Positions 1 to 39,050 of a DNA stretch of 39,050 bases are shown here, piece by piece. The translations under genes were made by a program, and so were the position numbers. The notes below the pieces were generated by a model. It saw nothing but the letters and a program-made list of their open reading frames with translations, searched no databases and had not been told where the DNA came from. The DNA is from Kayfunavirus PDP351P3: the sequence record OZ035732.1; one strand, given 5' to 3'. Position 1 is the stretch's first letter. Every line of letters starts with the position of its first letter.

Positions 1-29
1 TACAAAACGATTAAAGGAGGTGGTAAAAC

Positions 30-293
30 ATGACGCAGATGGACTTAGAGAAGTTCCTCTTGATGCTGGATACTGAACGTGCTCGCCTCATGCTGCAAGA
101 CCTGCGGGATGACTCTAAGCGTTCACCTCAGCTCTACAACGCCATTGAGAAGCTGCTTGCTCGTCACAACTTCGTGCTAAGCAAGGTGTCTGTGGACGAG
201 AAGACGCTGGCTGATATGGAGGCCCTGAACGCAGAGTACGATAAGGTGCTTTCAGCGACTGAGGATAATGACACCGGGTATGGTGTTCAATAA
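30..293 (+). CDS. small terminase subunit / DNA maturation protein A (T7 gp18-like)
   Basis: 87-aa ORF with AAAGGAGG RBS upstream; aligns over full length with T7 gp18 as recalled (LEMLDT...RSPQLYNAI.KLL.RH); synteny upstream of 18.5 and 19. Confidence 0.85.
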   Translation: MTQMDLEKFLLMLDTERARLMLQDLRDDSKRSPQLYNAIEKLLARHNFVLSKVSVDEKTLADMEALNAEYDKVLSATEDNDTGYGVQ

Positions 294-296
294 GTG

Positions 297-337
297 TTAG
301 ACTCAAGGTCATCTACAGGTGGCCTTTATGATTAACA
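297..337 (+). promoter_or_regulatory. conserved structured RNA element copy 1 (putative RNase III processing site, R18.5-like)
   Basis: Motif AGACTCAAGGTCAT-[small hairpin CTAC/GTGG]-GGCCTTTATGATTA, one of three copies, each about 20 nt upstream of an RBS; lower stem AAGG/CCTT. Confidence 0.45.
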
Positions 338-350
338 CTAAGGAGGTTAC

Positions 351-752
351 ATGAAAGATTCATACATAAGTGGCGGTTACTGGAAGGTTACTCGTAATGG
401 TAAGGTTCATGGAGTTCATAGATTACTATGGGAGGAAGCCTACGGTCCTATCCCAGATGGTTACGTCATAGACCACATTGATAGGAATCCTATGAATAAC
501 GAACTGTCAAACCTTAGGTGCATACCTAAAGGCGCAAACAAGGCTAACACTGTATCCTCTAGGGAACTACCTAAAGGCGTATACTCTAGGTTTGCTAAAC
601 GTCAAGGTATTACTGTGTACTATGGTGACATTAGGATGGGAGGTAAGAAAGAAACGCACGCTCCTACTAAGAATCTGATGGAAGTCGTGGAATGGGCTAA
701 GTCAACTCATAGTAGAATGCTTAAGGAGACATATGGTATTTCAAATGTTTAA
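351..752 (+). CDS. free-standing HNH homing endonuclease
   Basis: 133-aa ORF with AAGGAGG RBS; motif H-R-LLWEE-YGPIP-GYVIDHID-N-NN-SNLR shared with the two other HNH ORFs in the window; AT-richer codon usage (AGG, ATA, CTA) than neighbours; inserted between genes 18 and 18.5. Confidence 0.85.
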   Translation: MKDSYISGGYWKVTRNGKVHGVHRLLWEEAYGPIPDGYVIDHIDRNPMNNELSNLRCIPKGANKANTVSSRELPKGVYSRFAKRQGITVYYGDIRMGGKKETHAPTKNLMEVVEWAKSTHSRMLKETYGISNV

Positions 753-1179
753 GAGAGCGGCTCCGTGGTTACTTGCAGCAGTGATGTTTGCTGGTGGCTA
801 CCACACCGCTAACAATAAGTGGGAGGCTAAGGTCAATGCAGAATACACCTCGAATCTTAAGGCATCGGAAGATACAAGGCTTGCTGTCCAAGCTGAAGTC
901 AACAAAGTGTCCAAACGGTTTCAGGACGAAATGTCCTCGCTGGAAGGCAGCACTGATAGGATTATTGCTGACCTTCAGTCTGACAATAAGCGGCTGCGCA
1001 TCCGAGTCAAACCTACGAGTGGAACCACGCAAAGTGACGGTCGATGCGTCATTGATGGTTACGCCGAACTTGACGAACGAGATGCTAAACGTCTTATCGC
1101 CATCGGAGTGAAAGGAGACAAATGGATTAAGGCACTTCAGGACACTGTGAGAGCCTTACAGCAAGATAAGGAGGTGTAA
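733..1179 (+). CDS. i-spanin (Rz-like, T7 gp18.5-like)
   Basis: 148-aa ORF with N-terminal TM segment ([13 protein letters not shown]); aligns with recalled T7 gp18.5 ([20 protein letters not shown]...DERDAKR); start could instead be ATG 745. Confidence 0.8.
836..1111 (+). CDS. o-spanin (Rz1-like, T7 gp18.7-like) embedded in +1 frame of the i-spanin gene
   Basis: Alternate-frame ORF inside 18.5; GGAGG RBS 9 nt before ATG 836; lipobox LTISGC followed by ASES..., matching recalled T7 gp18.7 (PRWKGALIGL...ISGCASES...MLNV). Confidence 0.7.
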   Translation: MQNTPRILRHRKIQGLLSKLKSTKCPNGFRTKCPRWKAALIGLLLTFSLTISGCASESNLRVEPRKVTVDASLMVTPNLTNEMLNVLSPSE

Positions 1180-1181
1180 CC

Positions 1182-2945
1182 TTGAGTAAAGACTTAGTGG
1201 CCCGTCAGGCGCTAATGACTGCACGTATGAAGGCAGACTTCGTGTTCTTCCTGTTCGTCCTGTGGAAAGCTCTGTCACTCCCCGTCCCGACTCGCTGTCA
1301 GATTGATATGGCGAAGAAACTATCGGCTGGGGACAACAGGCGCTTCATCCTACAGGCGTTCCGTGGTATCGGGAAGTCCTTCATTACGTGTGCCTTCGTT
1401 GTCTGGAAGTTATGGAACAACCCAGACTTGAAGTTCATGATTGTGTCGGCCTCAAAGGAACGAGCCGATGCTAACTCCATCTTCATCAAGCGAATCATCG
1501 ACCTCATGCCTCAGCTTCAGGAACTCAAACCTAAGCAGGGACAGCGAGATGCGGTTATCAGCTTCGACGTTGGACCAGCCAAGCCAGACCACTCACCTTC
1601 GGTTAAGTCCGTTGGTATCACTGGTCAGTTGACTGGTAGTCGTGCTGACATCCTGATTGCCGATGACGTGGAGGTTCCGAACAACTCAGCGACTCAGGCC
1701 GCACGAGACCGTCTGTCAGAGCTTGTGAAAGAGTTCGACGCTATCCTGAAGCCGGGAGGTACAATCATCTATCTGGGTACTCCTCAGAACGAGATGACCT
1801 TGTATCGTGAGCTGGAAGGCCGTGGGTACACCACTACTATCTGGCCTGCTCGTTACCCACGTGATAAGAAGGACTGGCAGTCTTACGGCGACCGTCTGGC
1901 ACCGATGCTTCAGGCAGAGCTGGAAGAGGACCCTGAGTCCTTCTACTGGCGTCCGACTGATGAAGTACGCTTCGATGATACGGACCTGAAGGAACGCGAG
2001 TTGTCATATGGTAAAGCTGGCTTCGCTCTACAGTTCATGCTTAACCCGAACCTGAGTGATGCAGAGAAGTACCCTCTGAAGCTCCGTGACCTTATCGTAG
2101 CAGACTTGGACCCAGCATCCAGCCCAATGGTCTACCAATGGTTGCCGAACCCTCAGAACAAGCGTGAGGACGTTCCTAACGTTGGACTCATGGGTGACTC
2201 ATACCACACGTATCAGACTGTAGGTTCTGCCTTCAGTTCGTACACCCAGAAGATTCTGGTCATTGACCCTAGTGGTCGTGGTAAGGATGAAACTGGCTAT
2301 GCGGTACTATACCAGCTCAACGGCTACATCTTCGCTATGGAAGTTGGTGGTATGCGTGGTGGCTATGAAGACTCTACTCTGGAAGCGCTGGCTAAGATTG
2401 GTCGTAAGTGGAAGGTCAACGAATACGTCATTGAGGGTAACTTCGGTGATGGCATGTACCTTGAGCTATTCAAGCCTGTAGCGGCCCGTATTCATCCTGC
2501 TGCTGTAACTGAAGTGAAGAGTAAGGGTCAGAAGGAACTCCGCATATGTGACGTTCTGGAGCCTATCATGGGGTCTCACCGACTTATCGTTAACGCTGCT
2601 GCTATCGTCCAAGATTACCAGTCGGCCTCTGATAAGGATGGTGTTCGTAACCCTATCTACTCTCTCTTCTACCAGATGACACGTATCTCTCGTGAACGTG
2701 GAGCCTTGGCACACGATGACCGACTTGATGCTCTGGCTATCGGTGTACAGTTCTTCGTTGAGTCTATGGCTAAGGATGCCAACAAAGGCGAACGTGAAGT
2801 CACTGAGGAGTGGCTGGAGGAACAGATGGAGAACCCACGGAAAGGCTTCGAGTCCATCCACACTGAGTTCTGGGACAATGGGGTCCGGGTAACTCACGAT
2901 ACGGACGACGAGCTGGGGCTAGGGTCCTACATTACGTTCCACTAG
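1182..2945 (+). CDS. large terminase subunit / DNA maturation protein B (T7 gp19-like)
   Basis: 587-aa ORF, TTG start with AAGGAGG RBS; near-colinear match to recalled T7 gp19 ([72 protein letters not shown]). Confidence 0.95.
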
Positions 2946-3039
2946 CTTAATGAATAACTATGGGTGAAAGCTGCATGAATACGCAGTTAGTAACCTATAG
3001 TTACTACCAGTCTAACCTACTGTTTTACAAGGAGTTTGG

Positions 3040-4406: not shown

Positions 4407-4916
4407 ATGGAACGTAACGCTAACGCATACTATGAGCTGCTGGCTGCAACTGTTGAAGCATTTAACGAGCGCATTCAGTACGACGAAATAGCTGAAGGCG
4501 ATGACTACTGCGATGCGCTGCATGAAGTCGTAGACGATATGGTTCCGCACTATTACCACGAGATTTTCACGGTGATGGCTGCCGATGGTATTGACCATGA
4601 GTTCGAAGACTCTGGGCTGATGCCTGAGACCAAGGACGTAACGTGTATACTACAAGCTCGCATCTATGAGGCACTGTATAATGATGTGTCTAATAGCTCG
4701 GATGTGGTATGGTTCGAGCCTGAAGAGGGCGACGAAAAGGCTGAATATTGGGTAGTTGATGCTAGAACAGGCGAGATAATTGAGCAAGCTGTATCACTTT
4801 ACGAGGCTATTGCATGTGCAAAAGACCTCTATGAGGCAGGTTTTCACATGCAGGTCGAAGACATCAATGATAACGTAGTGTTCGACCCTGCGTCTGCTGA
4901 GGAGGACTGCGAGTGA
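4407..4916 (+). CDS. ocr: Ocr-like DNA-mimic anti-restriction protein (gene 0.3) with about 55-aa C-terminal extension
   Basis: 169-aa highly acidic ORF; residues 1-105 align with recalled T7 Ocr ([43 protein letters not shown] vs [43 protein letters not shown]); first gene after the early promoters. Confidence 0.85.
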
Positions 4917-9244: not shown

Positions 9245-9496
9245 ATGAGCAGACGTTGGTTATTCGATGCATCCACGAGCCAGTGGTCAGCGTTAGGCCG
9301 GACTCACCGCGAGATGAGTGAGGCAGGACTTGATGTCCTAATGGATGACTCGCCGTGCTCAGGAAAAACTCTGGTCAGAATAATTGAAGCAGACGGTGGG
9401 AGGCTTCTGGTCTCCAGAGAATTTACCGAAGATGAAATCTTTAACTGTGAGCAATGGTGCTTACAACAATTGAACGCTTATAGGAGCTGGAAATAA
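9245..9496 (+). CDS. gp1.2-like protein (candidate inhibitor of host dGTPase)
   Basis: 83-aa ORF at gene 1.2 position; pattern similarity to recalled T7 gp1.2 (R..IED..G.L...F..E..FN.C..WL, terminal WK). Confidence 0.55.
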   Translation: MSRRWLFDASTSQWSALGRTHREMSEAGLDVLMDDSPCSGKTLVRIIEADGGRLLVSREFTEDEIFNCEQWCLQQLNAYRSWK

Positions 9497-15923: not shown

Positions 15924-17939
15924 ATGTTTGACCTTAAGGATATTTGGGGTTCGGACATCGAGACCAACGGTCTCCTTGATACAGTATCCCAGTTTCACTG
16001 TGGGGTCCTGATTAACGCCGAGTCGAATGAGACCCTTAAGTATGGGGTAGCTCCGATGGTCGGTATCATCGGGGGCTTCAAAGAGTATGTGCAGAAGGTG
16101 GAAGAGATTGCCACATCACCTGATGGTATGCTGGTATTCCACAACGGTATCAACTATGACGTCCCGGCTATTGACAAGCTGAAGCGTCTGTACTTTGGTA
16201 AACGCTTTAACTTCCCGAAACACAAGATGATTGATACCTTGGTTCTGGGCCGCTTGATGTACCCAAACATTAAGTTCTCAGACATGGGCGCGGTGAAATC
16301 TGGTCGTCTGCCGCCTAAGATGATGGGACGCCAGTCTCTTGAGGCTTGGGGCTATCGTCTAGGTGAGATGAAGGGTGAGTACAAACACGATTACGTTGCC
16401 AAGTGCAAGGCCGAAGGTATCGAATATAAGTCTGGGGACGAATGGTTGTTCCCATCTCAGGAGATGCTGGACTATAACGTTCAAGACGTTGTGGTCACGC
16501 TGGCGTTGTTCAAGAAGTTCCTGACTGACAAGTATTACTTCCAGTCTGAACAGTTCGCTTTCGAACAGATTTATGCGTTGCGTCTGGAACATGATGCTGC
16601 GTGGACCTGCGCGAAGATGGAGCGTAATGGCTATCCGATGAACACCGAGATGGTCGAAGGCTTATATCGTGAACTCACTGTCAAACGTGCGGAGTTACTG
16701 GACAAGCTGCGCTCTACTTTCGGTAGCTGGTACGCACCAAAGGGAGGCAAGGAGTTCTTCAGGCATCCACGGACAGGTAAGGACCTTCCGAAGTACCCGA
16801 GAGTCGTGTATCCTAAGGTAGGTGGCATCTTTAAGAAGCCGAAGAACAAAGCTCAACGCTTAGGTCTTGAACCTTGTGAACTCGATACGCGAGACACGAT
16901 GGAGGGAGCACCCTTCACGCCAATCACTTACGTTGAGTTTAATCCGGGAAGCGGAGACCACTTAGCGAAAGTCCTGATGGAGCGTGGTTGGGAGCCTGTG
17001 GACTTCACTGACACTGGGAAACCGGTAGTTGATGACGAGACGTTAGAACACGTTAAGTTGCCAGACGCAGAGGCTCAGGCTTGCGTAGAGCTGGTCCGTG
17101 AGTATCTGGTAGTCCAGAAGAGAATCGGGCAGGCTGCTGAAGGTAAGAACGCATGGTTGAAACTTGTAGGTCCAGACGGACGTATGCATGGTTCAATCAA
17201 TCCATGTGGTGCAGTAACAGGACGTGCGACCCATAGTTCACCAAACATGGCTCAGGTCCCTGCTAACGGTGCTCCGTATGGTGAGACTTGCCGTGGTGCT
17301 TTCGGTGCAGCGTGGAACAAGAAGGACGGTAAGCCAGACCCTTGGATTCAAGTAGGCGTGGATGCTTCAGGTCTTGAGCTTCGTTGTCTGGGGAACCGAG
17401 CGGCTCCGTTTGATGGTGGAGATTATGCGAAGACTGTGGTCGAAGGTGACATCCACTGGGCCAACGCAGTCAACGCTGGGTTAGCACCTAACGTCCCACG
17501 CGACAAGTCGAACCACGACCACGAGGCTTTCCGTAACAACGCTAAGACGTTCATCTATGCGTTCCTGTATGGTGCAGGGGCAGCTAAGATTGGACTGATA
17601 GTAGGCGGTGGGAAGAAGGAAGGTTCAGCTCTCATGAAGAAATTCATTGAGGGCACACCAGCCATCAAGGACCTCAGGGAAGCTGTGAGTAATACGTTAA
17701 TCTCAGACTCTAAGTGGGTAGATGGTGAGAACATCGTTAAGTGGAAACGCCGATGGTTGCGTGGACTTGATGGTCGCCGTATCCACATCCGGTCTCCACA
17801 CTCAGCACTTAACGCCTTACTTCAAGGCGATGGTGCGGTAATCTGTAAGCACTGGATTGTCGAGACTGAACGTATGCTCGAAGAGGCCGGGTATGTCCAC
17901 GGCTGGGAAGGAGACTTCGCATACATGGCATGGGTGCAT
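15924..17939 (+). CDS. DNA polymerase (T7 gene 5-like), exon 1
   Basis: 672 codons; SDIE.N.LL..V..FHCGV, HNG..YDVPA, NVQDVVVT, GSWY.PKGG.E.F.HPRTGK.LPKYPR, DASGLELRC, AKTFIY.FLYGAG, KWKRRW..GLDGR..H.RSPH.ALN.LLQ, FAYMAWVH match recalled T7 gp5; frame then runs into intron. Confidence 0.9.
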
Positions 17940-18540
17940 AAACTATCTCATTGTGCACATTAAATCTGGTGAACTCGGTGAAACCCTTCTAGGGCAATAC
18001 CGAGCCAAGCCATAGGGAGGATATATGAGAGGCAAGAAGTTAATCCTTGCGACCACAGAGAGTGGTTGTATCATCCCTACGTCACACAAACTTAATGCTG
18101 ATGGTTATTTCCGAAAGAGGACTAACGGTGTCCTAGAGATGTATCACAGGACAGTATGGAAGGAACAGCACGGAGATATACCAGAAGGGTATGAAGTAGA
18201 CCACAAGTGTAGGAACAGGGCATGCTGTAATGCAGAGCATCTCCAGTTACTAGAAGGGTCTGAGCATGCAGTCAAGACAAACAGTGAACGCTACGCTGAC
18301 CGTAAAGAGTCTGCGAGGGAATACTGGTTGGAGACTGGATGTACAGGAACACACTTAGGTGAGAAGTTTGGTGTTACGTTCTCTGCCGCGTGTAAGTGGA
18401 TTAGAGAGTGGAAGGCGTAGAGACTATCCGAAAGGAGTAGGGCCGAGGGTGAGATTCCCTCGTTACCCGAAGCGCCAGACAGTCAACTCAAAGGCTGATG
18501 ATATAGTCCGACACTCCTAGTAATAGGAGAATACAGAAAG
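17940..18540 (+). mobile_element. group I intron interrupting DNA polymerase motif C, carrying an HNH homing endonuclease gene
   Basis: 5' exon ends in U (17939), intron ends in G (18540); exon GUGCAU can pair with intron GUGCAC (17953-17958) as P1; P7 strands AGAGACUA (18419-18426) and GAUAUAGUCC (18500-18509); flanking exons rejoin in frame to give ...AWVH-DEIQV... Confidence 0.8.
18025..18420 (+). CDS. intron-encoded HNH homing endonuclease
   Basis: 131-aa ORF with GGGAGG RBS inside the intron; HNH family motif (YHRTVWKEQHGDIPEGYEVDHKCRNRACCNAEHLQL) shared with ORFs 351-752 and 21443-21835; AGG/AGA-rich codon usage. Confidence 0.85.
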   Translation: MRGKKLILATTESGCIIPTSHKLNADGYFRKRTNGVLEMYHRTVWKEQHGDIPEGYEVDHKCRNRACCNAEHLQLLEGSEHAVKTNSERYADRKESAREYWLETGCTGTHLGEKFGVTFSAACKWIREWKA

Positions 18541-18696
18541 GATGAGATTCAAGTAGCTTGTCGTACTCAGGAGATTGCCGAAGAAGTCGTCAAGATTGCT
18601 CAACTTGCTATGCGTAAGGTGGGTGAGTTCTATAACTTTAAATGTGTTCTTGATACGGAGGGTAAGATTGGACCCACGTGGAAAGAATGTCATTAA
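18541..18696 (+). CDS. DNA polymerase (T7 gene 5-like), exon 2
   Basis: 51 codons DEIQVACRTQEIAEEVVKIAQLAMRKVGEFYNFKCVLDTEGKIGPTWKECH*, colinear with recalled T7 gp5 C-terminus (DEIQVGCRTEEIA...RCLLDTEGKMGPNWAICH). Confidence 0.85.
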   Translation, partial: DEIQVACRTQEIAEEVVKIAQLAMRKVGEFYNFKCVLDTEGKIGPTWKECH

Positions 18697-18714
18697 CGGA
18701 AAGGAGTAGCACTA

Positions 18715-19005
18715 ATGGCTATGACCAAACGTATGCGAGTTTCGTTCTCGCTTGGTACTGTGTTGTCAACTGAAAAAGTGGAGAACTTCAAGAATAATCT
18801 CTGCGAGCTGAGCCGTAAGGTCCTCAACGGAGAGAAGACCACTGGTTTTGAGCGCAAGATGGTAGAGGTTGGTGTGACTGAAGGTCTGGAAGCTGTAATC
18901 GAACTTGTCTTAAAGAGAGACATCGTCTACGGTATGAAAGAAGACCTTAGCAACTACTATGACCCGCTGAGCTTTGGTAACTTCCGGGTGGAGTTCAAGA
19001 AATGA
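18715..19005 (+). CDS. gp5.5-like protein (candidate H-NS-binding protein)
   Basis: 96 aa; N-terminus MAMTKRMRVSF matches recalled T7 gp5.5 MAMTKKFKVSF; synteny. Confidence 0.65.
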   Translation: MAMTKRMRVSFSLGTVLSTEKVENFKNNLCELSRKVLNGEKTTGFERKMVEVGVTEGLEAVIELVLKRDIVYGMKEDLSNYYDPLSFGNFRVEFKK

Positions 19006-20800: not shown

Positions 20801-21205
20801 ATGCTACCATATCTCAACTCACGCGAAGGTCGCCACATGTGCGCCTGTCGCCTCTGGGAAGACGGGCAGTCTAACTTCAAGTCATTCGAGGACTTCAAGG
20901 CTCATACTTACCGTATGGCTGACGAGTTCGACGGTGAAGAGTACACAATCTACGATGCCTCAGGTCAACCAGTAGCGTATCTCTACATGCTGGCTACCGC
21001 ATCTTGGCACCGACCGACTCCCGGTCTTGACCTTTCAATCGTCGCTATTCGTCGTGACTCGCAGTCCTCCCGCAAGGTTCTTGAGACTGTCAGACACATC
21101 ATATACGAAGAGTGCAAGCGTTGGGGTCTTGGCTGGTATTCTCGTGTCAAGCATGTTTCAGGGTCGGTAGACATCGTAACAACTAAGGAGATTAACCGTG
21201 GGTAA
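20801..21205 (+). CDS. gp7-like protein (by synteny)
   Basis: 134-aa ORF-track ORF between 6.7 and 7.3; no confident sequence recall. Confidence 0.55.
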   Translation: MLPYLNSREGRHMCACRLWEDGQSNFKSFEDFKAHTYRMADEFDGEEYTIYDASGQPVAYLYMLATASWHRPTPGLDLSIVAIRRDSQSSRKVLETVRHIIYEECKRWGLGWYSRVKHVSGSVDIVTTKEINRG

Positions 21206-21446
21206 ATCAATCAGTAAGGCTTTCAAGAAAGTGGTGAAAAGTACGTTAGGGACAGTGGGTCTTGGCTCTGACGATGCTCCTAAGGTTGTTGAGGCTCAGA
21301 CCCCAGCAGCACCAGTGGAAGTACCGAACGACCAAGTGGAGGATGTGGATACTGAAACAACCGCATCTGATGAGAAGAAAGTGAAGCGTTCTGGTAAGCG
21401 TAGCCTTCAGGTCTCTCGCACCTCTGGTGGAGGCATCTCTATATGA
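21198..21446 (+). CDS. gp7.3-like tail/adsorption protein
   Basis: 82 aa, GTG start with AAGGAG RBS; MGK...KK..K, central VEVP, KRSGKRSLQVSRTSGGGISI vs recalled T7 gp7.3 ...GGKKSLSVARSSGGGINI. Confidence 0.75.
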   Translation: MGKSISKAFKKVVKSTLGTVGLGSDDAPKVVEAQTPAAPVEVPNDQVEDVDTETTASDEKKVKRSGKRSLQVSRTSGGGISI

Positions 21447-21835
21447 CACCATGTCATGAATGGGGTGGATATTGCACCAAGGATGGCTACGGTGAAACTA
21501 GGGTAGATGGGCGCAAGGTTCGCGTTCATCGCCTAGAGTGGACGAAACACTACGGACCCATTCCGCATGACAAAGTGGTTCGCCACAAGTGTGACAACCC
21601 TAAGTGTTTTAATATTGAACACCTAGAGTTAGGAACAACACAAGATAACACGGCTGACAGAGTGTCTCGTGGTCGAAGCGCCAAAGGAGAGGATAACGGT
21701 AACGCCATCCTCACTATTGATATTGTCAATGAGATTCGCGAGAGTGGCATGTCTCAGCGCAAAATAGCGAAGACCTATGGAGTGTCACAGTCTACCGTAT
21801 CTAAAATCAAACGCAATGTAACGTGGAGGGCATAA
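21443..21835 (+). CDS. HNH endonuclease with C-terminal helix-turn-helix (gene 7.7 position)
   Basis: 130 aa; VHRLEWTKHYGPIPHDKVVRHKCDNPKCFNIEHLEL (HNH); C-terminal QRKIAKTYGVSQSTVSKIKRN (HTH-like); T7 gene 7.7 is also an HNH-type gene. Confidence 0.85.
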   Translation: MTPCHEWGGYCTKDGYGETRVDGRKVRVHRLEWTKHYGPIPHDKVVRHKCDNPKCFNIEHLELGTTQDNTADRVSRGRSAKGEDNGNAILTIDIVNEIRESGMSQRKIAKTYGVSQSTVSKIKRNVTWRA

Positions 21836-21836
21836 C

Positions 21837-23405
21837 ATGGCAGAACGTGAAGGATTTGCGGCTGAGGGGGCGAAGGCAGTTTATGATAGGCTAAAGAACG
21901 GACGACAGCCTTACGAGACCCGCGCACAAAACTGCGCTGCCGTGACCATCCCCTCTCTATTTCCTAAGGAGTCAGATAACTCCTCTACGGAATACGTGAC
22001 GCCGTGGCAAGCTGTGGGTGCTCGCTGCTTGAACAACTTGGCTGCAAAGCTGATGTTGGCATTATTCCCTCAGTCACCGTGGATGCGACTGACAGTCTCC
22101 GAATATGAGGCCAAGACCTTGAGTCAGGACTCAGAGGCTGCTGCTCGTGTTGACGAAGGGCTTGCTATGGTCGAGCGTGTGTTGATGGCCTACATGGAGA
22201 CTAACAGTTTCCGTGTCCCATTGTTTGAGGCTCTTAAGCAGCTTATCGTCTCCGGTAACTGTCTGCTCTACATTCCAGAGCCTGAACAGGGAACCTACAG
22301 TCCTATGCGAATGTACCGCTTAGTGTCCTACGTTGTTCAACGTGATGCTTTCGGTAACATCTTACAGATTGTGACTCTCGACAAGGTAGCGTTTAGTGCT
22401 CTACCGGAAGACGTGAAGTCTCAACTAAACGCAGACGACTATGAGCCTGACACCGAGCTGGAAGTGTATACGCACATCTACCGTCAGGACGACGAGTATC
22501 TGCGCTACGAGGAAGTGGAAGGAATTGAGGTAGCAGGGACCGAGGGTTCTTACCCACTGACTGCATGTCCGTACATCCCGGTACGAATGGTTCGACTGGA
22601 TGGTGAAGACTATGGTCGTTCTTACTGCGAGGAGTATCTGGGAGACCTGAACTCGCTGGAGACGATTACAGAAGCTATCACCAAAATGGCTAAGGTAGCC
22701 TCCAAGGTGGTGGGCCTCGTTAACCCGAACGGTATCACGCAACCCCGTCGTCTGAACAAGGCGGCTACAGGTGAGTTCGTGGCTGGTCGAGTTGAGGACA
22801 TCAACTTCCTGCAACTGACGAAAGGTCAGGACTTTACGATTGCCAAGTCGGTGGCTGACGCTATCGAGCAACGTTTAGGATGGGCCTTCCTTCTTAATAG
22901 TGCTGTTCAGCGTAATGCCGAGCGAGTCACTGCTGAAGAGATTCGTTATGTTGCTGGCGAACTGGAGGCGACCTTAGGTGGCGTGTACTCAGTACAATCC
23001 CAAGAGCTTCAGTTACCTATCGTCCGTGTGTTGATGAACCAGCTTCAGTCTGCTGGCATGATTCCTGACCTTCCGAAAGAAGCGGTAGAGCCTACGGTAT
23101 CCACTGGTCTAGAAGCGTTAGGTCGTGGTCAGGACTTGGAGAAGCTAACTCAGGCAGTCAACATGATGACCGGGCTACAGCCTCTGCAACAGGACCCAGA
23201 CATTAACTTGCCTACCCTTAAGCTGCGACTGCTGAATGCCTTAGGCATTGACACCGCTGGTCTGCTGCTTACTCAGGACGAGAAGTTGCAACGTATGGCT
23301 GAACAATCCGCTCAAGGAGCTGTGGTCAACGGTGCGTCTGCTGCTGGTGCTAATATGGGTGCTGCTGTAGGTCAGGGAGCTGGTGAGGACATGGCTCAAG
23401 CCTAA
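21837..23405 (+). CDS. portal (head-tail connector) protein (T7 gp8-like)
   Basis: 522 aa; PYETRAQNCA..TIPSLFPK.SDN.ST.Y.TPWQAVGAR.LNNLA.KLMLALFP, RLDGE.YGRSY.EEYLGDL.SLE, ERVTAEEIRYVA.ELE.TLGGVYS..SQELQLP.VRVL match recalled T7 gp8. Confidence 0.97.
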   Translation: MAEREGFAAEGAKAVYDRLKNGRQPYETRAQNCAAVTIPSLFPKESDNSSTEYVTPWQAVGARCLNNLAAKLMLALFPQSPWMRLTVSEYEAKTLSQDSEAAARVDEGLAMVERVLMAYMETNSFRVPLFEALKQLIVSGNCLLYIPEPEQGTYSPMRMYRLVSYVVQRDAFGNILQIVTLDKVAFSALPEDVKSQLNADDYEPDTELEVYTHIYRQDDEYLRYEEVEGIEVAGTEGSYPLTACPYIPVRMVRLDGEDYGRSYCEEYLGDLNSLETITEAITKMAKVASKVVGLVNPNGITQPRRLNKAATGEFVAGRVEDINFLQLTKGQDFTIAKSVADAIEQRLGWAFLLNSAVQRNAERVTAEEIRYVAGELEATLGGVYSVQSQELQLPIVRVLMNQLQSAGMIPDLPKEAVEPTVSTGLEALGRGQDLEKLTQAVNMMTGLQPLQQDPDINLPTLKLRLLNALGIDTAGLLLTQDEKLQRMAEQSAQGAVVNGASAAGANMGAAVGQGAGEDMAQA

Positions 23406-25742: not shown

Positions 25743-26309
25743 ATGGCTCAATACATTCCACTGAATGCTAACGATGACTTAGATGCCATCAACGATATGT
25801 TAGCTGCTATCGGTGAACCAGCAGTCCTACAGCTTGACGAGGGTAACGCTGATGTCTCGAATGCTCAACGTATCCTACATCGTGTCAATCGTCAGGTCCA
25901 AGCTAAAGGATGGAACTTTAACATCAACGAAGCTGCTGTCCTGACACCTGATGTCCAAGACAATAGGATTCGATTCCTACCGTCATACCTTCGTGTAATG
26001 ACTGCCGGGGCCACCAGCTATTATAGCAACATGGGTGGATACCTGTACGACCTGTCCACTCAGTCAACCACTTTCACCGACCCTATAACGGTAGAGCTTG
26101 TTGAGATGAAACCATTCTCTGAGATGCCAGTGGTCTTCAGGGACTACATCGTTACCAAGGCTAGCCGTGAGTTCAACGCTAAGTTCTTCGGTAGCCCAGA
26201 GTCAGAGCTATACCTTCGTGAGCAGGAAGCAGAACTCTATCAGCAGGTTATGGAGTACGAGATGGACACTGGTCGCTACAACATGATGTCTGACATCGGG
26301 AGGGACTAA
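25743..26309 (+). CDS. tail tubular protein A (T7 gp11-like)
   Basis: 188 aa; D.L..IGEP.V..L.EGNAD...A.RIL...NRQ.Q..GW.FNI.E, ASR.FN..FFG.PE, EYEMD.G.YNM match recalled T7 gp11. Confidence 0.9.
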   Translation: MAQYIPLNANDDLDAINDMLAAIGEPAVLQLDEGNADVSNAQRILHRVNRQVQAKGWNFNINEAAVLTPDVQDNRIRFLPSYLRVMTAGATSYYSNMGGYLYDLSTQSTTFTDPITVELVEMKPFSEMPVVFRDYIVTKASREFNAKFFGSPESELYLREQEAELYQQVMEYEMDTGRYNMMSDIGRD

Positions 26310-26536
26310 TGGCTAGTCACAACCTGAAGATTCACCGCCAGCACTTTGGTCCGGTACAACTAGGTCTAAAGACAGCAGAGCTGAGACTTAACGACCGGGA
26401 CTTTAAGGTTGGCGACTGGCTTATTCTGAATGAGTGGGACAACGGGTACACTGGACAACAGGTAGCACGTAAGGTTGTCCACATTGCTGACGTTGGTGAC
26501 ATCGCTGAGGGATACGTCCTAATGAGTATGATTTAA
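26309..26536 (+). CDS. ASCH/DUF3850-like small protein inserted between tail tubular genes
   Basis: 75 aa; H.LKI....F.PV..G.KT.E.R.NDRDFKVGDWLIL.EWD...YTG......V..I.......GYVLMS fits the DUF3850 (ASCH-fold) pattern as I remember it; T7 has no gene here. Confidence 0.6.
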   Translation: MASHNLKIHRQHFGPVQLGLKTAELRLNDRDFKVGDWLILNEWDNGYTGQQVARKVVHIADVGDIAEGYVLMSMI

Positions 26537-36272: not shown

Positions 36273-38762
36273 ATGTCCACGATTACACAATTCCCTTCAG
36301 GAAACACTCAGTACAGGATTGAGTTCGACTACCTATCCAGAACGTTTGTTGTTGTTACTCTGGTGAATAGCTCTAACCTTACCCTGAACCGTGTACTGGA
36401 AGTTGGTCGAGATTACCGATTCCTTAATCCAACGATGATTGAGATGTTGGTTGACCAATCAGGTTTCGACATCGTTCGTATTCACCGTCAGACTGGAACT
36501 GACTTAGTGGTAGACTTCAGGAATGGCTCAGTGTTGACAGCTAGTGACCTGACTAATGCAGAGCTTCAGGCTATCCATATTGCAGAAGAAGGTCGAGACC
36601 AAACGGTTGACTTAGCGAAGGAATATGCCGATGCTGCTAGTAGCTCTGCTGGCAACGCTAAGGATAGCGAGGACGAAGCACGCCGAATCGCTGATAGTAT
36701 CAAGACATCTGGTCAAATTGGCTATATTACCCGCCGCTCCTTCGAGAAAGGCTTCAACGTTACAACATGGAACGAGGTCCTGCTATGGGAAGAGGATGGC
36801 GAATATTACCGTTGGGACGGTGACTTTCCTAAAACCGTACCTGCTGGCTCAACTCCTGAAACTTCAGGTGGAGTTGGTTTAGGTGCATGGGTTAGCGTTG
36901 GTGATGCGTCACTTAGAGGGCAAATATCTTCTAAATACGGATTATCAATTATTGGTGGGTTTGAATCAGTAGATGATATGAGATCCTATTCATCAGTTGC
37001 AAGTTTGCCAGACGGCACAAGGGCTTTCTTGTTTAGTTTTTATGCCGGGAAAAGCATTGGTGGAGGTATATTTCAATGGCACAGTAACGCAACAACTGAT
37101 GATGATGGCTTCTCTGTTATTAAACCATCAGCTGTTTCAGGAGCAGGTCGATGGATTAACATTAAACGTGGCAGACTAACCCCGGAAGAATGTGGGTGCG
37201 TACCTAATGACCCATCATTTGACAACGGCGTACCGCTTAATAGATGGGCGTCACAGCAGCATTGTATAGGTTCCGTTGGCGTCTTTTATAAAACAACTGC
37301 TTTAATTCCGTCACCGCCAGCGTACCCACAGTATATAGACGCTAAAGGCATGAGGCTGATGACTACTGTGGCTGACGTAAATGGGGTGGAACTCTCCTCT
37401 GATATGTCTCGACGTATCAATATTGAGGGTCTTGAGTCGTTCGGTGACCCGTCATTAACAGTAACGAATCGCAATAAAGCCAACGGCTTCTATATCGCTG
37501 GCTGTAGGGAAGTAGTCCTAAAAAACATTCGCTGTGAGGGATGGAAAAACGCTGGTGTCTGGTGGTTTGAAGTCAACAATATGACTATCGACGGATTTAT
37601 TGGATGGAGAAATGATTGGGATGGTTCCACACTATTCTCCTCTGGTGGGGATTTAGTTGAATGGACTTCGAGCGACGGGTTGGCGAAATCCTGCAGTATA
37701 ACTAATTTCGCGTGTTTTTCAGATGGCAGCCAAAGCATATCCATAAACTCATTATCTTTTGGGCGAAATGTACTAATCAGTAACGGACGCTGTTTCACGT
37801 ATGACGCTACAGATTTTACACCAAAAACTCGGACTAACATAAAAGCACGACATGGAATCACGATAGGTTACAACTCCAACCAGACGTATGGTGGTGGTGT
37901 TAAAGTTAGTAACGTCATTATCAGAGATAAGGGGTGGACTGGCATTTGCCGCTCTGGTGGTTTAGATGGCGCTGTACGATATCAACCAGCTACCATTTCT
38001 AACGTTTCAGTGTACGATTGCGGTTTTGGTATAAACCAAGACAACATTGGTGCTGGTATTCTGTTTGGTGACGTAGTTGACGGAGACATGATCAACAACT
38101 GTTATGTGGAAGGTTTCGCCAACGCTAATAACGGTGCGTACAAAATTCAGGATTCTGTAGGTACAGGGAAGCTGACAATAGCTAACTGTGTTGATAAAGG
38201 TTCTGCTGGATACGGTGTACACATAGCGACAGAATCGGTTAACGTAATGGTTATCGGCCACAGAAGCATAGAACCAACCGGTGCAGGTATTTTCCTTGAG
38301 GCAAAAGGCGGCGCAACACTATTCCGGTCGCATACTGTTGACGGATGTCGTATTGAGCGTGTGACGGACGGTTACGGAATATTTTTGTCTAACGGCGTAA
38401 TTAGTGCGAATATCAAAAACAATGAAATCCGTGGTACTTCTACGAACTCCACAACAAACTGTGCTATTCGTGTAAACCAAAATGGGCAAAACATAAATAT
38501 CAGAGGAAATCAGATTTACGGTTTTGCATACGGGTTGTGGTACAACACCTATGTGAACACCACAACGGTATTCCCGTGGGGTAACAACCAATTCTTCGGC
38601 TGCATTAACGCACACCGTTTCGCAAGGACGACAGGAACCAGTGTTGCTAAGGTAGAACCTAATTATTACGACGGCGCTACTACAAATCAATTCTCTAATG
38701 GTGGCGTAGGAACGAGTAACGGAACGGAAGAATTTAGAGTTAATGGCACTCCCGTGACCTAA
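36273..38762 (+). CDS. tailspike: T7 gp17-like N-terminal tail-attachment domain fused to a parallel beta-helix (putative polysaccharide depolymerase) module
   Basis: 829 aa; residues 1-150 resemble recalled T7 gp17 N-terminus (EFDYLSR.FVVVTL, DYRF, LVDF.NGS.L.A.DL..A.LQ..H.AEE.RD); remainder has beta-helix-type repeats (NNCYVEGF, NNEIRGTS, IRGNQIYG) and is AT-richer than the rest of the genome. Confidence 0.9.
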   Translation: MSTITQFPSGNTQYRIEFDYLSRTFVVVTLVNSSNLTLNRVLEVGRDYRFLNPTMIEMLVDQSGFDIVRIHRQTGTDLVVDFRNGSVLTASDLTNAELQAIHIAEEGRDQTVDLAKEYADAASSSAGNAKDSEDEARRIADSIKTSGQIGYITRRSFEKGFNVTTWNEVLLWEEDGEYYRWDGDFPKTVPAGSTPETSGGVGLGAWVSVGDASLRGQISSKYGLSIIGGFESVDDMRSYSSVASLPDGTRAFLFSFYAGKSIGGGIFQWHSNATTDDDGFSVIKPSAVSGAGRWINIKRGRLTPEECGCVPNDPSFDNGVPLNRWASQQHCIGSVGVFYKTTALIPSPPAYPQYIDAKGMRLMTTVADVNGVELSSDMSRRINIEGLESFGDPSLTVTNRNKANGFYIAGCREVVLKNIRCEGWKNAGVWWFEVNNMTIDGFIGWRNDWDGSTLFSSGGDLVEWTSSDGLAKSCSITNFACFSDGSQSISINSLSFGRNVLISNGRCFTYDATDFTPKTRTNIKARHGITIGYNSNQTYGGGVKVSNVIIRDKGWTGICRSGGLDGAVRYQPATISNVSVYDCGFGINQDNIGAGILFGDVVDGDMINNCYVEGFANANNGAYKIQDSVGTGKLTIANCVDKGSAGYGVHIATESVNVMVIGHRSIEPTGAGIFLEAKGGATLFRSHTVDGCRIERVTDGYGIFLSNGVISANIKNNEIRGTSTNSTTNCAIRVNQNGQNINIRGNQIYGFAYGLWYNTYVNTTTVFPWGNNQFFGCINAHRFARTTGTSVAKVEPNYYDGATTNQFSNGGVGTSNGTEEFRVNGTPVT

Positions 38763-38792: not shown

Positions 38793-38889
38793 CATCAGAA
38801 GGTTGTGGAGGTAGAGGCTAACTACACGCTGACCAACGTATGATAACAACTTTGGGTCATGGACGACCCGCTTTAAACTGGAGGTTTTA

Positions 38890-39050
38890 TGATTGAGTTA
38901 GACTTCAAGAATGAGGTCCTTAAAGCCTCTCCTATCGTCGGGACCGCTGCGGCTGATGGTGCCAGTCGGTTCTTCTTCGGACTCACACTGAACGAATGGT
39001 TCTACGTTGCAGCTATCGCGTACACCGTTGTCCAGATTGGTGTGCTAGTC
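38890..39050 (+). CDS. type II holin (T7 gp17.5-like), 3'-truncated by window end
   Basis: ATG 38890 with GGAGG RBS; MIELDFKNEVLKASPIVGTAAADGASRFFFGLTLNEWFYVAAIAYTVVQIG matches recalled T7 gp17.5 (MLSLDFNNELIKAAPIVGTGVADVSARLFFGLSLNEWFYVAAIAYTVVQIG); no stop within window. Confidence 0.8.

What the first reader, a model, noticed from the sequence alone, without database searches (positions are those of the whole stretch)
351..752. Three paralogous HNH endonuclease genes at three different insertion contexts
ORFs 351-752 (free-standing, between 18 and 18.5), 18025-18420 (intron-encoded in gene 5) and 21443-21835 (gene 7.7 position, with an added C-terminal helix-turn-helix) share one HNH core (H-R..W...YGPIP.G..VDH....N..N...NL). 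All three use rare codons (AGG, AGA, CTA, ATA) more than neighbouring genes, which points to foreign origin. The first is inserted next to the terminase genes, a recurrent homing-endonuclease niche. Three copies in a 39-kb genome suggest active homing and a source of marker exclusion in mixed infections.
Basis: partly seen in the sequence, partly recalled or inferred. Interest (0 to 1): 0.5.

Follow-up and report, generated by a model that had tools for sequence, protein, structure and literature searches.

The report
Three homing endonuclease genes, T7-like phage

Summary
ORFs 351-752, 18025-18420 and 21443-21835 are intact and are the only HNH_3 (PF13392) genes in the window, a circularly permuted Kayfunavirus genome.

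They are not recent paralogues. They share only the ~65-residue nuclease core (29-35% identity) and belong to three known lineages:
- **HNH1:** an I-HmuI-like HNH with an AP2-fold C-terminal domain, related to T7 gp3.8. It sits between genes 18 and 18.5.
- **HNH2:** lies in a 601-nt group I intron that splits gene 5 at the His|Asp-Glu codons of motif C, as annotated in K1F and 13a.
- **HNH3:** a full-length homologue of T7 gp7.7 in the same 7.3|8 slot. Its helix-turn-helix is native to that family, and HNH2 has one too.

Comparative evidence supports mobility:
- Each gene is present or absent at a fixed site among close relatives.
- HNH1 is 76-78% identical across genera where the flanking genes are 47-52%.
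- The intron is about 97% identical to that of Teseptimavirus 13a in a Kayfunavirus backbone, with a 17-nt co-converted exon tract.
- The 5' end of gene 8 is saturated with synonymous changes relative to an HNH3-less relative.

All three genes are under purifying selection (dN/dS about 0.1-0.17). Rare-codon enrichment is real but not unique to them. Cleavage and marker exclusion remain untested. Interest is low.

The parts
351..752 (+). HNH1: free-standing homing-endonuclease gene (133 aa). It has an I-HmuI-like HNH_3 nuclease (about residues 5-66) and an AP2-fold DNA-binding domain (about residues 77-128).
293..339 (+). Conserved stem-loop directly 5' of the HNH1 cassette. It marks the upstream insertion junction, at the position of the T7 R18.5 RNase III site (the T7 comparison is from my own knowledge).
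   Evidence: Folds at -18.2 kcal/mol, z -3.0. It is conserved in K1F, TM1, IME321, Sekstaphage-1 and CHRF_20120. In the window and in CHRF_20120 an unrelated EndoVII-type ORF and HNH1 both begin at the same point right after it; IME321 and Sekstaphage-1 have the HNH1 homologue just downstream of the same stem-loop.
733..1179 (+). Gene 18.5 (Rz-like spanin). Its ribosome-binding site, start codon and first codons lie inside the 3' end of HNH1 (overlap 733-752).
   Evidence: PHROG 1327 at E 1e-58. Alignment with HEG-less K1F shows that about 50 bp, including the native 18.5 start, were replaced. The same overlap occurs in Przondovirus IME321 and Teetrevirus Sekstaphage-1.
30..293 (+). Gene 18 (small terminase subunit), the upstream neighbour of HNH1.
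   Evidence: PHROG 1351 at E 1e-34. It is 100% identical in protein to K1F gp18.
15924..17939 (+). Gene 5 (DNA polymerase) exon 1, ending ...TGG GTG CAT (W V H).
   Evidence: PHROG 17 at E 1e-148. Alignment with intronless P762 and with K1F, whose gene 5 is annotated as a join, fixes the junction.
17940..18540 (+). Group I self-splicing intron (601 nt) carrying HNH2 in a peripheral loop (P6a, according to the literature).
   Evidence: Rfam RF00028 at 38 bits, E 4.9e-8, model positions 1-253. This is below the 50-bit gathering score, so gathering mode finds nothing. On 8 introns from 5 phage groups RNAalifold predicts 55 pairs, 19 of them with compensatory changes. 97.5% of cells are paired against 36-48% in slid controls, and 0 of 500 shuffles reach the observed values. 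A U.G pair sits at the 5' splice site and the intron ends in G. It is 93-100% identical per 100-nt window (about 97% overall) to the 13a intron.
18025..18420 (+). HNH2: intron-encoded HNH endonuclease (131 aa) with a Cys-rich HNH core and a C-terminal HTH-like region.
   Evidence: HNH_3 at 58.5 bits and PHROG 6254 at E 2.5e-46. It is 95% identical to the 13a intron ORF and 78% to K1F gp5.3. dN/dS is 0.10-0.17. hhalign against the gp7.7 family covers residues 23-127.
18541..18696 (+). Gene 5 exon 2 (DEIQVACRT...KECH*). The first 17 nt (18541-18557) form a 13a-type co-conversion tract.
   Evidence: The spliced ORF is 723 aa. GATGAGATTCAAGTAGC is identical to 13a and differs from K1F and P762.
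21443..21835 (+). HNH3: gp7.7-family HNH endonuclease (130 aa) with a C-terminal helix-turn-helix. It is translationally coupled to gene 7.3 through an ATGA overlap and supplies the ribosome-binding site of gene 8.
   Evidence: HNH_3 at 62.2 bits and HTH_3 at 25.3 bits. It is 46% identical to T7 gp7.7 over 126 aa, E 1.5e-39. It is inserted in place of the short spacer between genes 7.3 and 8 seen in EcoDS1. The same allele occurs in only 6 phage records. ST31 has a 39%-identical HNH in the same slot.
21837..22046 (+). The 5' end of portal gene 8, which is hyper-divergent at synonymous sites relative to an HNH3-less relative. It is probably a co-conversion or target-site region.
   Evidence: pS is 0.75 and pN 0.02 against EcoDS1 for codons 1-70, compared with pS 0.175 for codons 71-520. 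Sliding identity is 75-85% here and 95-98% further on.

Best explanation
The window is a K1F-like (Kayfunavirus) phage genome that holds three independently acquired homing-endonuclease genes (HEGs). All three share an N-terminal HNH_3 nuclease, and each has its own C-terminal DNA-binding module.

- **HNH1 (351-752)** is a free-standing HNH-AP2 endonuclease related to T7 gp3.8. It lies between gene 18 and gene 18.5, just 3' of a conserved stem-loop. Its insertion replaced about 50 bp of the HEG-less allele, and its own 3' end now provides the start of gene 18.5.
- **HNH2 (18025-18420)** sits in a loop of a group I intron (17940-18540) that splits the DNA polymerase gene between the His and Asp-Glu codons of catalytic motif C. 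RNA self-splicing restores the polymerase reading frame.
- **HNH3 (21443-21835)** is a T7 gp7.7-type HNH-HTH endonuclease that fills the short 7.3|8 spacer.

None of the three has its own phage promoter. Each is expressed from the host operon through its own ribosome-binding site or by translational coupling.

The inferred mechanism is standard homing. In a mixed infection, each enzyme nicks or cuts the HEG-less allele of a co-infecting relative at or near its own insertion site. Repair templated by the HEG-carrying genome then copies in the HEG together with flanking markers (co-conversion, seen as marker exclusion). The HEG-carrying genome is immune because the insertion or the co-converted flank has changed the target.

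Shown here: the domain identities, the intron structure and junction, the insertion anatomy, the sporadic distribution, the cross-genus transfer and the purifying selection. Inferred: cleavage activity, the target sites and present-day mobility.
For: - **Identity:** Pfam and PHROG hits. I-HmuI matches by sequence and by fold, and AP2/ERF domains match by fold. HNH3 is homologous to T7 gp7.7 and HNH1 to T7 gp3.8. hhalign covers HNH2 against the gp7.7 family at full length, but HNH1 against that family only over the core.
- **Intron:** the Rfam hit; the exact junction against intronless P762, which restores ...WVH|DEIQ...; covariation with 19 compensatory pairs and 0 of 500 shuffles reaching the observed values. 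Gene 5 is annotated as a two-piece join in K1F, 13a and Bas102.
- **Sporadic presence at fixed sites:** the HNH1 allele is in 4 records (3 phages), while 153 records cover at least 80% of the 3-kb region around it. The HNH3 allele is in 6 of 220 records. The intron is missing from P762 and PH1061.
- **Horizontal transfer:** HNH1 is 76-78% identical in protein between Kayfuna-, Przondo- and Teetrevirus, where gp18 and gp18.5 are 47-52%. The window's intron is 93-100% identical to the Teseptimavirus 13a intron, whereas its exons are 55-74% identical to 13a and about 95% to K1F and P762. K1F's own intron is only 60-93% identical.
- **Co-conversion footprints:** a 17-nt 13a-type tract in exon 2, and saturated synonymous divergence in the first 70 codons of gene 8.
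- **Function retained:** all three are full length, the catalytic residues are conserved, and dN/dS is 0.08-0.17.
- **Foreign composition:** low GC and rare codons.
- **Hot spot:** an unrelated EndoVII-type ORF sits at the same 5' junction in Salmonella phage CHRF_20120, and a different HNH allele occupies the 7.7 slot in ST31.
- **Literature:** the K1F gene 5 intron with its endonuclease (PMC4925675); the phiI/W31 group I intron in T7-like DNA polymerase genes with the ORF in P6a (cited in PMC3428280); HEGs clustering near terminase, polymerase and structural genes (PMC10448857).
Against: - No cleavage, splicing or co-infection data exist for this phage, so activity is inferred.
- The Rfam score (38 bits) is below the family's gathering score (50 bits).
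- The higher conservation of HNH1 relative to its flanks could partly reflect constraint and not transfer.
- The synonymous hyper-divergence at the 5' end of gene 8 also appears, more weakly, against HNH3-carrying Vec13 (pS 0.26). That region may therefore be a general recombination hot spot and not only a footprint of HNH3.
- Rare-codon bias is shared by several small non-HEG genes.
Confidence: 0.85

Rival explanations
1. The three genes are true paralogues that arose by duplication and transposition of one HNH gene within this phage lineage.
For: All three share the HNH_3 core and the motif H-R..W...G.IP.G..V.H. Pairwise E values are 1e-9 to 1e-12.
Against: Identity among the three is only 29-35% and, for HNH1, is confined to about 65 residues. 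Each is far closer to genes in other phages: 76-98% identical, plus 46% to T7 gp7.7 and 34% to T7 gp3.8. Their C-terminal domains differ (AP2 against HTH). Their best PHROG families differ. No phage record in the database carries both the HNH1 and HNH3 alleles, so the genes assort independently.
Confidence: 0.03
2. HNH1 is not selfish. It is a packaging accessory nuclease that works with terminase, like HK97 gp74.
For: It lies directly downstream of the small terminase gene and 430 nt upstream of the large terminase gene. HNH proteins next to terminase genes are known packaging factors in cos phages (discussed in PMC10448857).
Against: It is absent from most close relatives that have nearly identical terminase genes; K1F gp18 is 100% identical. 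It cannot therefore be required for packaging. Its architecture (HNH_3 plus AP2, I-HmuI-like) is that of homing endonucleases. The same site holds an unrelated EndoVII-type ORF in other Kayfunaviruses. T7-group phages package concatemers with direct terminal repeats and have no cos site (established knowledge).
Confidence: 0.04
3. The genes are decaying relics of old invasions. They are no longer active endonucleases, and any current role is neutral or regulatory, for example DNA binding only.
For: HEGs commonly degenerate after fixation. No activity data exist. HNH3 has Arg in place of the Asp that precedes the catalytic His (RH where HNH1 and HNH2 have DH).
Against: All three are full length relative to homologues. 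The catalytic His and the downstream Asn or His are conserved. dN/dS is 0.08-0.17. Alleles that are 95-99% identical have recently crossed lineage boundaries. The residue before the catalytic His is also not Asp in T7 gp7.7 or ST31 (Met-His).
Confidence: 0.08

Closest known systems
[quoted passage not shown]
   Same: The insertion point is the same: the His|Asp-Glu codons of motif C, site 881 in E. coli Pol I numbering. The ORF lies in a peripheral P6 loop. The intron is 601 nt and about 97% identical to that of 13a, and the ORF is 95% identical to the 13a ORF and 78% to K1F gp5.3.
   Different: Nothing differs in kind. The allele is the Teseptimavirus (13a) type placed in a Kayfunavirus polymerase gene, not the K1F type. 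The phiI and W31 sequences themselves could not be retrieved for direct comparison.
T7 gp7.7 (HNH endonuclease between genes 7.3 and 8)
   Same: Same genomic slot, same length (130 aa), same HNH plus C-terminal HTH architecture, and 46% identity over 126 aa at E 1.5e-39.
   Different: It is a diverged allele. Within Kayfunavirus it occurs in only 6 records, most relatives have an empty slot, and some carry a third allele (ST31, 39% identical).
T7 gp3.8 and the HNH-AP2 homing endonucleases (Magnani et al. 2004 family, as cited in PMC10448857); I-HmuI as the structural prototype of the nuclease
   Same: An N-terminal I-HmuI-like HNH with the D-H...N...N residues, followed by a C-terminal three-strand-plus-helix AP2 fold. 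It is 34% identical to T7 gp3.8 over both domains.
   Different: It is located between genes 18 and 18.5, not at the 3.8 position. Its 3' end overlaps and supplies the start of the Rz spanin gene. The AP2 domain is too divergent for the Pfam AP2 profile. I-HmuI itself carries different C-terminal DNA-binding elements (from my own knowledge of the 1U3E structure).
HK97 gp74-type HNH packaging factors next to terminase genes
   Same: It is an HNH protein encoded beside terminase genes.
   Different: It belongs to a different HNH subfamily and architecture. It is dispensable, being absent from most relatives. The host phage is not a cos phage.

Membership tests
HNH_3 / I-HmuI-like HNH homing endonucleases | Match to Pfam PF13392 above the gathering score | tested here: met
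   65.2, 58.5 and 62.2 bits against a 24.8-bit cut-off for the three ORFs.
HNH_3 / I-HmuI-like HNH homing endonucleases | Catalytic His general base plus downstream Asn/His metal ligands, as in I-HmuI D74/H75/N87/N96 | tested here: met
   HNH1 D41/H42/N54/N63 align to the I-HmuI residues and are invariant in 18 homologues. For HNH2, H60, N69, H72 and H81 are invariant in 7 homologues. For HNH3, H48, N57, H60 and N69 are invariant in 4 homologues. For HNH2 and HNH3 the residue roles are inferred by alignment only.
HNH_3 / I-HmuI-like HNH homing endonucleases | Sporadic presence or absence at a fixed genomic site among close relatives | tested here: met
HNH_3 / I-HmuI-like HNH homing endonucleases | Site-specific nicking or cleavage of the HEG-less allele, and biased inheritance in crosses | not testable with these tools
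   This needs biochemistry and co-infection experiments.
HNH-AP2 homing endonucleases (HNH1 only) | C-terminal AP2/ERF-type fold: a three-stranded sheet packed on a helix | tested here: met
   [not shown]
HNH-AP2 homing endonucleases (HNH1 only) | Sequence match to the Pfam AP2 profile | tested here: not met
   There was no Pfam hit to the C-terminal 65 residues of HNH1 or of two homologues, even at E up to 10. The assignment is by fold only.
Group I intron (Rfam RF00028) | Covariance-model score at or above the gathering score | tested here: not met
   38 bits against a 50-bit gathering score. The full model is covered at E 4.9e-8 in a local search, and nothing is found in gathering mode. The 396-nt ORF insertion is a likely reason for the low score.
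Group I intron (Rfam RF00028) | Conserved paired core supported by covariation | tested here: met
   55 pairs, 19 with compensatory changes. 97.5% of cells are paired against 36-48% in slid controls, and 0 of 500 shuffles reach the observed values.
Group I intron (Rfam RF00028) | U.G pair at the 5' splice site in P1, a terminal G, and removal of the intron restoring the host reading frame | tested here: met
   Exon 1 ends in U, which pairs with G (alignment column 10 with column 24, invariant). An exon G-to-A change is matched by a C-to-U change in the guide sequence in ECBP2 and Vp_R1. The intron ends in G at 18540. The spliced ORF matches intronless P762.
Group I intron (Rfam RF00028) | Self-splicing in vitro or in vivo | not testable with these tools
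   This needs RT-PCR or in vitro transcription.
T7 gp7.7 family (HNH3) | Full-length homology to T7 gp7.7 and location between genes 7.3 and 8 | tested here: met
   46% identity over 126 of 130 aa at E 1.5e-39. The position is confirmed.
HK97 gp74-like packaging HNH (considered for HNH1) | Conserved, required component of the packaging module in all close relatives | tested here: not met
   The HNH1 allele is present in only 4 phage records (3 phages), although 153 records cover at least 80% of the 3-kb region around it. K1F has an identical gp18 and no HNH.

The most novel reading that the evidence does not exclude
The HNH1 lineage may have become entrenched by capturing the translation start of the Rz spanin gene 18.5. 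In the three HNH1-type loci whose junction I read in three genera (this Kayfunavirus window, Przondovirus IME321, Teetrevirus Sekstaphage-1), the ribosome-binding site, ATG and first codons of 18.5 lie inside the endonuclease's 3' end (...E-T-Y-G, ACATATGG). Precise loss of the selfish gene would then disable a lysis gene, which would act as an addiction-like safeguard. The conserved stem-loop just upstream would define a shared landing site that at least two unrelated nuclease families (HNH-AP2 and EndoVII-type) use.
Probability: 0.25. Interest if true: 0.35.

Novelty: already known. Interest (0 to 1): 0.2.

Why it matters
The main value is for annotation and for understanding mosaicism. The analysis shows that gene 5 is one spliced gene of 723 aa, not a truncated polymerase followed by small ORFs. 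It assigns the three small ORFs to known selfish-element families.

It also gives clean comparative examples of homing footprints in a T7-group phage. One is an intron allele shared across genera, with a 17-nt co-converted exon tract. Another is a synonymous-divergence spike at the 5' end of the portal gene. The third is a two-family nuclease hot spot beside a conserved stem-loop.

For people who use Kayfunavirus phages in therapy cocktails or engineering, these genes predict biased marker inheritance in mixed infections. The finding does not open a new biological question.

Tried and rejected
- **Rfam, gathering mode:** a scan of the whole window found nothing. The intron appears only in E-value mode on the local region.
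- **Pfam on C-terminal fragments:** the C-terminal fragments of HNH1 and two homologues gave no AP2 hit or any other hit. The HNH2 tail gave only weak HTH hits at E 0.01-0.07.
- **PDB sequence searches:** nothing was found for HNH2. HNH3 gave only uL24/KOW ribosomal-protein matches (E 0.004-0.35), which I treat as chance, plus weak HTH proteins.
- **T7 gp5.3:** I expected it to be related to HNH2, but it shows no similarity to any of the three genes. That recollection was wrong and I dropped it.
- **Primary papers and sequences:** the Bonocora & Shub papers (PMC529087, PMC2856452) are not held, and the phiI sequence AY769989 is not in the collections. I-TslI is therefore cited only through secondary sources.
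- **Citrobacter phage NS1:** its intron copy looks disrupted or runs into the start of the record, so I left it out of the covariation set.
- **Flanks of HNH1:** I looked for a co-conversion tract and found none. Gene 18 and gene 18.5 beyond the junction are nearly identical to HEG-less K1F.
- **Fourth HNH gene:** none was found.
- **Dedicated phage promoters:** none lies directly upstream of any of the three genes.
Full report
**What the window is.** Megablast of 1-3000 and 3000-27900 against GenBank phages returns K1F-like phages (genus Kayfunavirus, Studiervirinae) at 93-96% identity. PHROG hits place small terminase gene 18 at 30-293, Rz spanin 18.5 at 733-1179, large terminase 19 at 1182-2945 and DNA polymerase gene 5 from 15924. 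Genes 7 and 7.3 lie at 20801-21446 and portal gene 8 at 21837-23405. The holin gene 17.5 begins at 38888 and reads through the window end into bases 1-32. The window is therefore a circularly permuted complete genome.

**Check of the observation.** The three ORFs exist as stated, at 133, 131 and 130 aa.
- Each matches Pfam HNH_3 far above its cut-off (65.2, 58.5 and 62.2 bits against 24.8).
- A six-frame phmmer/hmmsearch scan finds exactly these three and no fourth.
- Pairwise BLASTP is significant but distant: 32% over 65 aa, 35% over 68 aa and 29% over 117 aa.
- The four rare codons make up 9.0%, 7.6% and 4.6% of codons, against 1.84% in the other 36 genes (Fisher p 9e-6, 2e-4, 0.035). AGA/AGG encode 7 of 9, 7 of 10 and 3 of 12 arginines, against 13% in the background.
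- GC is 41.6%, 47.3% and 47.9%, against mostly 48-54% in the other genes.
- The bias is real but not diagnostic. Two small early genes and the tail-spike gene are equally biased.

**HNH1 (351-752).**
- *Insertion anatomy.* Alignment with HEG-less K1F shows a clean indel. After a conserved stem-loop (293-339; -18.2 kcal/mol, z -3.0), about 50 bp of the K1F intergenic region, including the native 18.5 start, are replaced by the cassette. The cassette's last codons (…K-E-T-Y-G-I-S-N-V) contain the ribosome-binding site and ATG now used by 18.5, giving the overlap 733-752.
- *Distribution.* The allele is found at more than 90% identity in only TM1, BUCT788 and YZ1, although 153 records cover at least 80% of the 3-kb region around it.
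- *Cross-genus conservation.* The same gene sits at the same site with the same 18.5 overlap in Przondovirus IME321 and Teetrevirus Sekstaphage-1. There the endonuclease is 76-78% identical to the window's, whereas flanking gp18 and gp18.5 are only 47-52% identical. This points to movement between genera.
- *Hot spot.* In Salmonella Kayfunavirus CHRF_20120, an unrelated 91-aa EndoVII-type ORF starts at the same 5' junction. The site is therefore a landing spot for more than one nuclease family.
- *Family.* HNH1 is 34% identical to T7 gp3.8 across both domains. It is a gp3.8-type HNH-AP2 endonuclease at a different address.

**HNH2 and the intron.**
- *Junction.* Gene 5 reads ...FAYMAWVH and then runs into a stop. 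Intronless P762 continues ...WVH-DELQIACRT. In the window the matching DEIQVACRT... resumes at 18541. The intervening 601 nt (17940-18540) match Rfam Intron_gpI over the whole model at E 4.9e-8. At 38 bits the match is below the 50-bit gathering score, so the default scan is empty.
- *Covariation test.* I took the same element from 13a, K1F, Bas102, Aeromonas phage PT2, Suseptimavirus ECBP2, Edwardsiella phage DT115P1 and Vibrio phage Vp_R1 and removed the ORF. RNAalifold predicts 55 pairs, 19 of them with compensatory changes. 97.5% of cells are paired against 36-48% when partners are slid by 1-3 columns, and none of 500 shuffles reaches the observed values.
- *Splice-site features.* P1 pairs the last exon bases GUGCAU with the internal guide GUGCAC, with the canonical U·G at the splice site. 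Where the exon has A in place of G (ECBP2, Vp_R1), the guide changes C to U. The intron ends in G. The spliced gene encodes 723 aa.
- *The endonuclease.* The ORF is 95% identical to the 13a intron ORF and 78% to K1F gp5.3. Gene 5 is annotated as a two-piece join in K1F, 13a and Bas102. The K1F intron is mentioned in PMC4925675. The prototype phiI/W31 intron, with the ORF in P6a at Pol I site 881, is described in PMC3428280, citing Bonocora & Shub 2004.

**Evidence that the intron moved.** In 100-nt windows the window's intron is 93-100% identical to that of Teseptimavirus 13a. The flanking exons are only 55-74% identical to 13a and about 95% to Kayfunavirus K1F and P762. K1F's own intron is just 60-93% identical. 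The switch happens at the splice sites. The first 17 nt of exon 2 (GATGAGATTCAAGTAGC) are 13a-type and differ from both K1F and P762. This changes two residues, from L-Q-I to I-Q-V. It is the expected footprint of homing with a short co-conversion tract. BUCT788 carries the same intron at 98.7% identity.

**HNH3 (21443-21835).**
- *Insertion anatomy.* Compared with EcoDS1, the gene exactly replaces the short spacer between the 7.3 stop and the gene 8 start. Its ATG overlaps the 7.3 stop (ATGA), and its last codons carry the ribosome-binding site for gene 8.
- *Family and distribution.* It is 46% identical over 126 of 130 residues to T7 gp7.7 (E 1.5e-39), which occupies the same slot in T7. The allele occurs in only 6 phage records. 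Most Kayfunaviruses have an empty slot, and ST31 has a third allele that is 39% identical.
- *The HTH.* It passes Pfam HTH_3 and is shared with T7 gp7.7. Profile comparison also aligns the HNH2 family with the gp7.7 family from the nuclease through the HTH (98.9%, E 2e-17, 100 columns). HNH1 aligns only over the 63-residue core. The HTH is therefore ancestral to that clade, not an addition.
- *Flank.* Directly downstream, the first 70 codons of gene 8 have pS 0.75 and pN 0.02 against EcoDS1, compared with pS 0.175 for the rest of the gene. This is consistent with a co-converted or target-altering tract. The region is also somewhat elevated against HNH3-carrying Vec13 (pS 0.26), so a general recombination hot spot is not excluded.

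**Function and expression.**
- All three genes are full length relative to homologues and show dN/dS of 0.08-0.17. The proteins are therefore maintained by selection.
- K1F-type promoters (AACTATCACTATAGG) occur at eleven sites, none directly upstream of a HEG. The genes ride on host transcripts.

**Comparison with what is known, and verdict.**
- Each of the three elements has an annotated, near-identical counterpart in GenBank: TM1 'homing endonuclease', the 13a and K1F intron ORFs, and Vec13 'HNH endonuclease'.
- Each also maps to a long-known T7-group family: gp3.8-like HNH-AP2, the phiI/W31/K1F polymerase intron endonuclease, and gp7.7.
- RefSeq T7 itself lists genes 3.8 and 7.7 as HNH endonucleases and gene 2.8 as an endonuclease, so three copies is typical.
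- No record in the phage collection carries both the HNH1 and HNH3 alleles. The combination seen here looks new, but that is ordinary mosaicism.
The genes were acquired independently and are not paralogues by duplication. The HTH is native to the gp7.7 family and is shared by HNH2, while HNH1 has an AP2 fold in place of an HTH. Rare-codon bias is shared with other small genes.
- Cleavage activity, target sites and marker exclusion remain to be shown experimentally.
- The rival readings are each contradicted by the distribution, architecture and selection data above. They are an internal duplication, a packaging co-factor role for HNH1, and dead relics.

Noticed in passing
38888-39050 joined to 1-32: The holin gene 17.5 runs across the window boundary in frame. 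The window is therefore a circularly permuted complete phage genome whose break point lies inside a gene.
   Followed up: partly
36273-38762: The tail-spike gene has markedly low GC (45%), GC3 of 0.40 and 4.6% rare codons. Pfam finds a T7 tail-fibre N-terminal adaptor followed by Tail_spike_N and a right-handed beta-helix. It looks like a horizontally swapped receptor-binding or depolymerase module, different from the K1F endosialidase.
   Followed up: partly
293-339: A stable stem-loop with an internal loop (-18.2 kcal/mol, z -3.0) is conserved between genes 18 and 18.5 in four genera. It lies where T7 has its R18.5 RNase III site (from my own knowledge). Both HNH1 and an unrelated EndoVII-type ORF (Salmonella phage CHRF_20120, L012:550-825) begin at the same point immediately after it.
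   Followed up: partly
21837-22046: The first ~70 codons of portal gene 8 are saturated with synonymous differences (pS 0.75) relative to EcoDS1, while the protein is nearly unchanged. The rest of the gene has pS 0.175.
   Followed up: yes
18690-18990 (gene 5.5 region): Right after gene 5 exon 2, identity to BUCT788 drops from about 99% to 45-52%, while identity to K1F is 85-96% over most of gene 5.5 (18740-18990). This is a sharp mosaic boundary adjacent to the intron-bearing gene.
   Followed up: no
3040, 5890, 8966, 10661, 11529, 13879, 20201, 23401, 24380, 28928, 36204: Eleven K1F-type phage RNA polymerase promoter matches (core AACTATCACTATAGG, two of them with one or two core mismatches) were found with a consensus built from the promoters annotated in EcoDS1. 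None lies directly upstream of a homing-endonuclease gene.
   Followed up: partly
4407-4916; 9245-9496; 26309-26536: Host-takeover and accessory genes: an Ocr DNA mimic (PF08684, E 4e-30), a gp1.2-like dGTPase inhibitor (PHROG 6515; 8.4% rare codons), and a small DUF3850/ASCH-domain ORF among the tail genes.
   Followed up: no
[not shown]
   Followed up: partly
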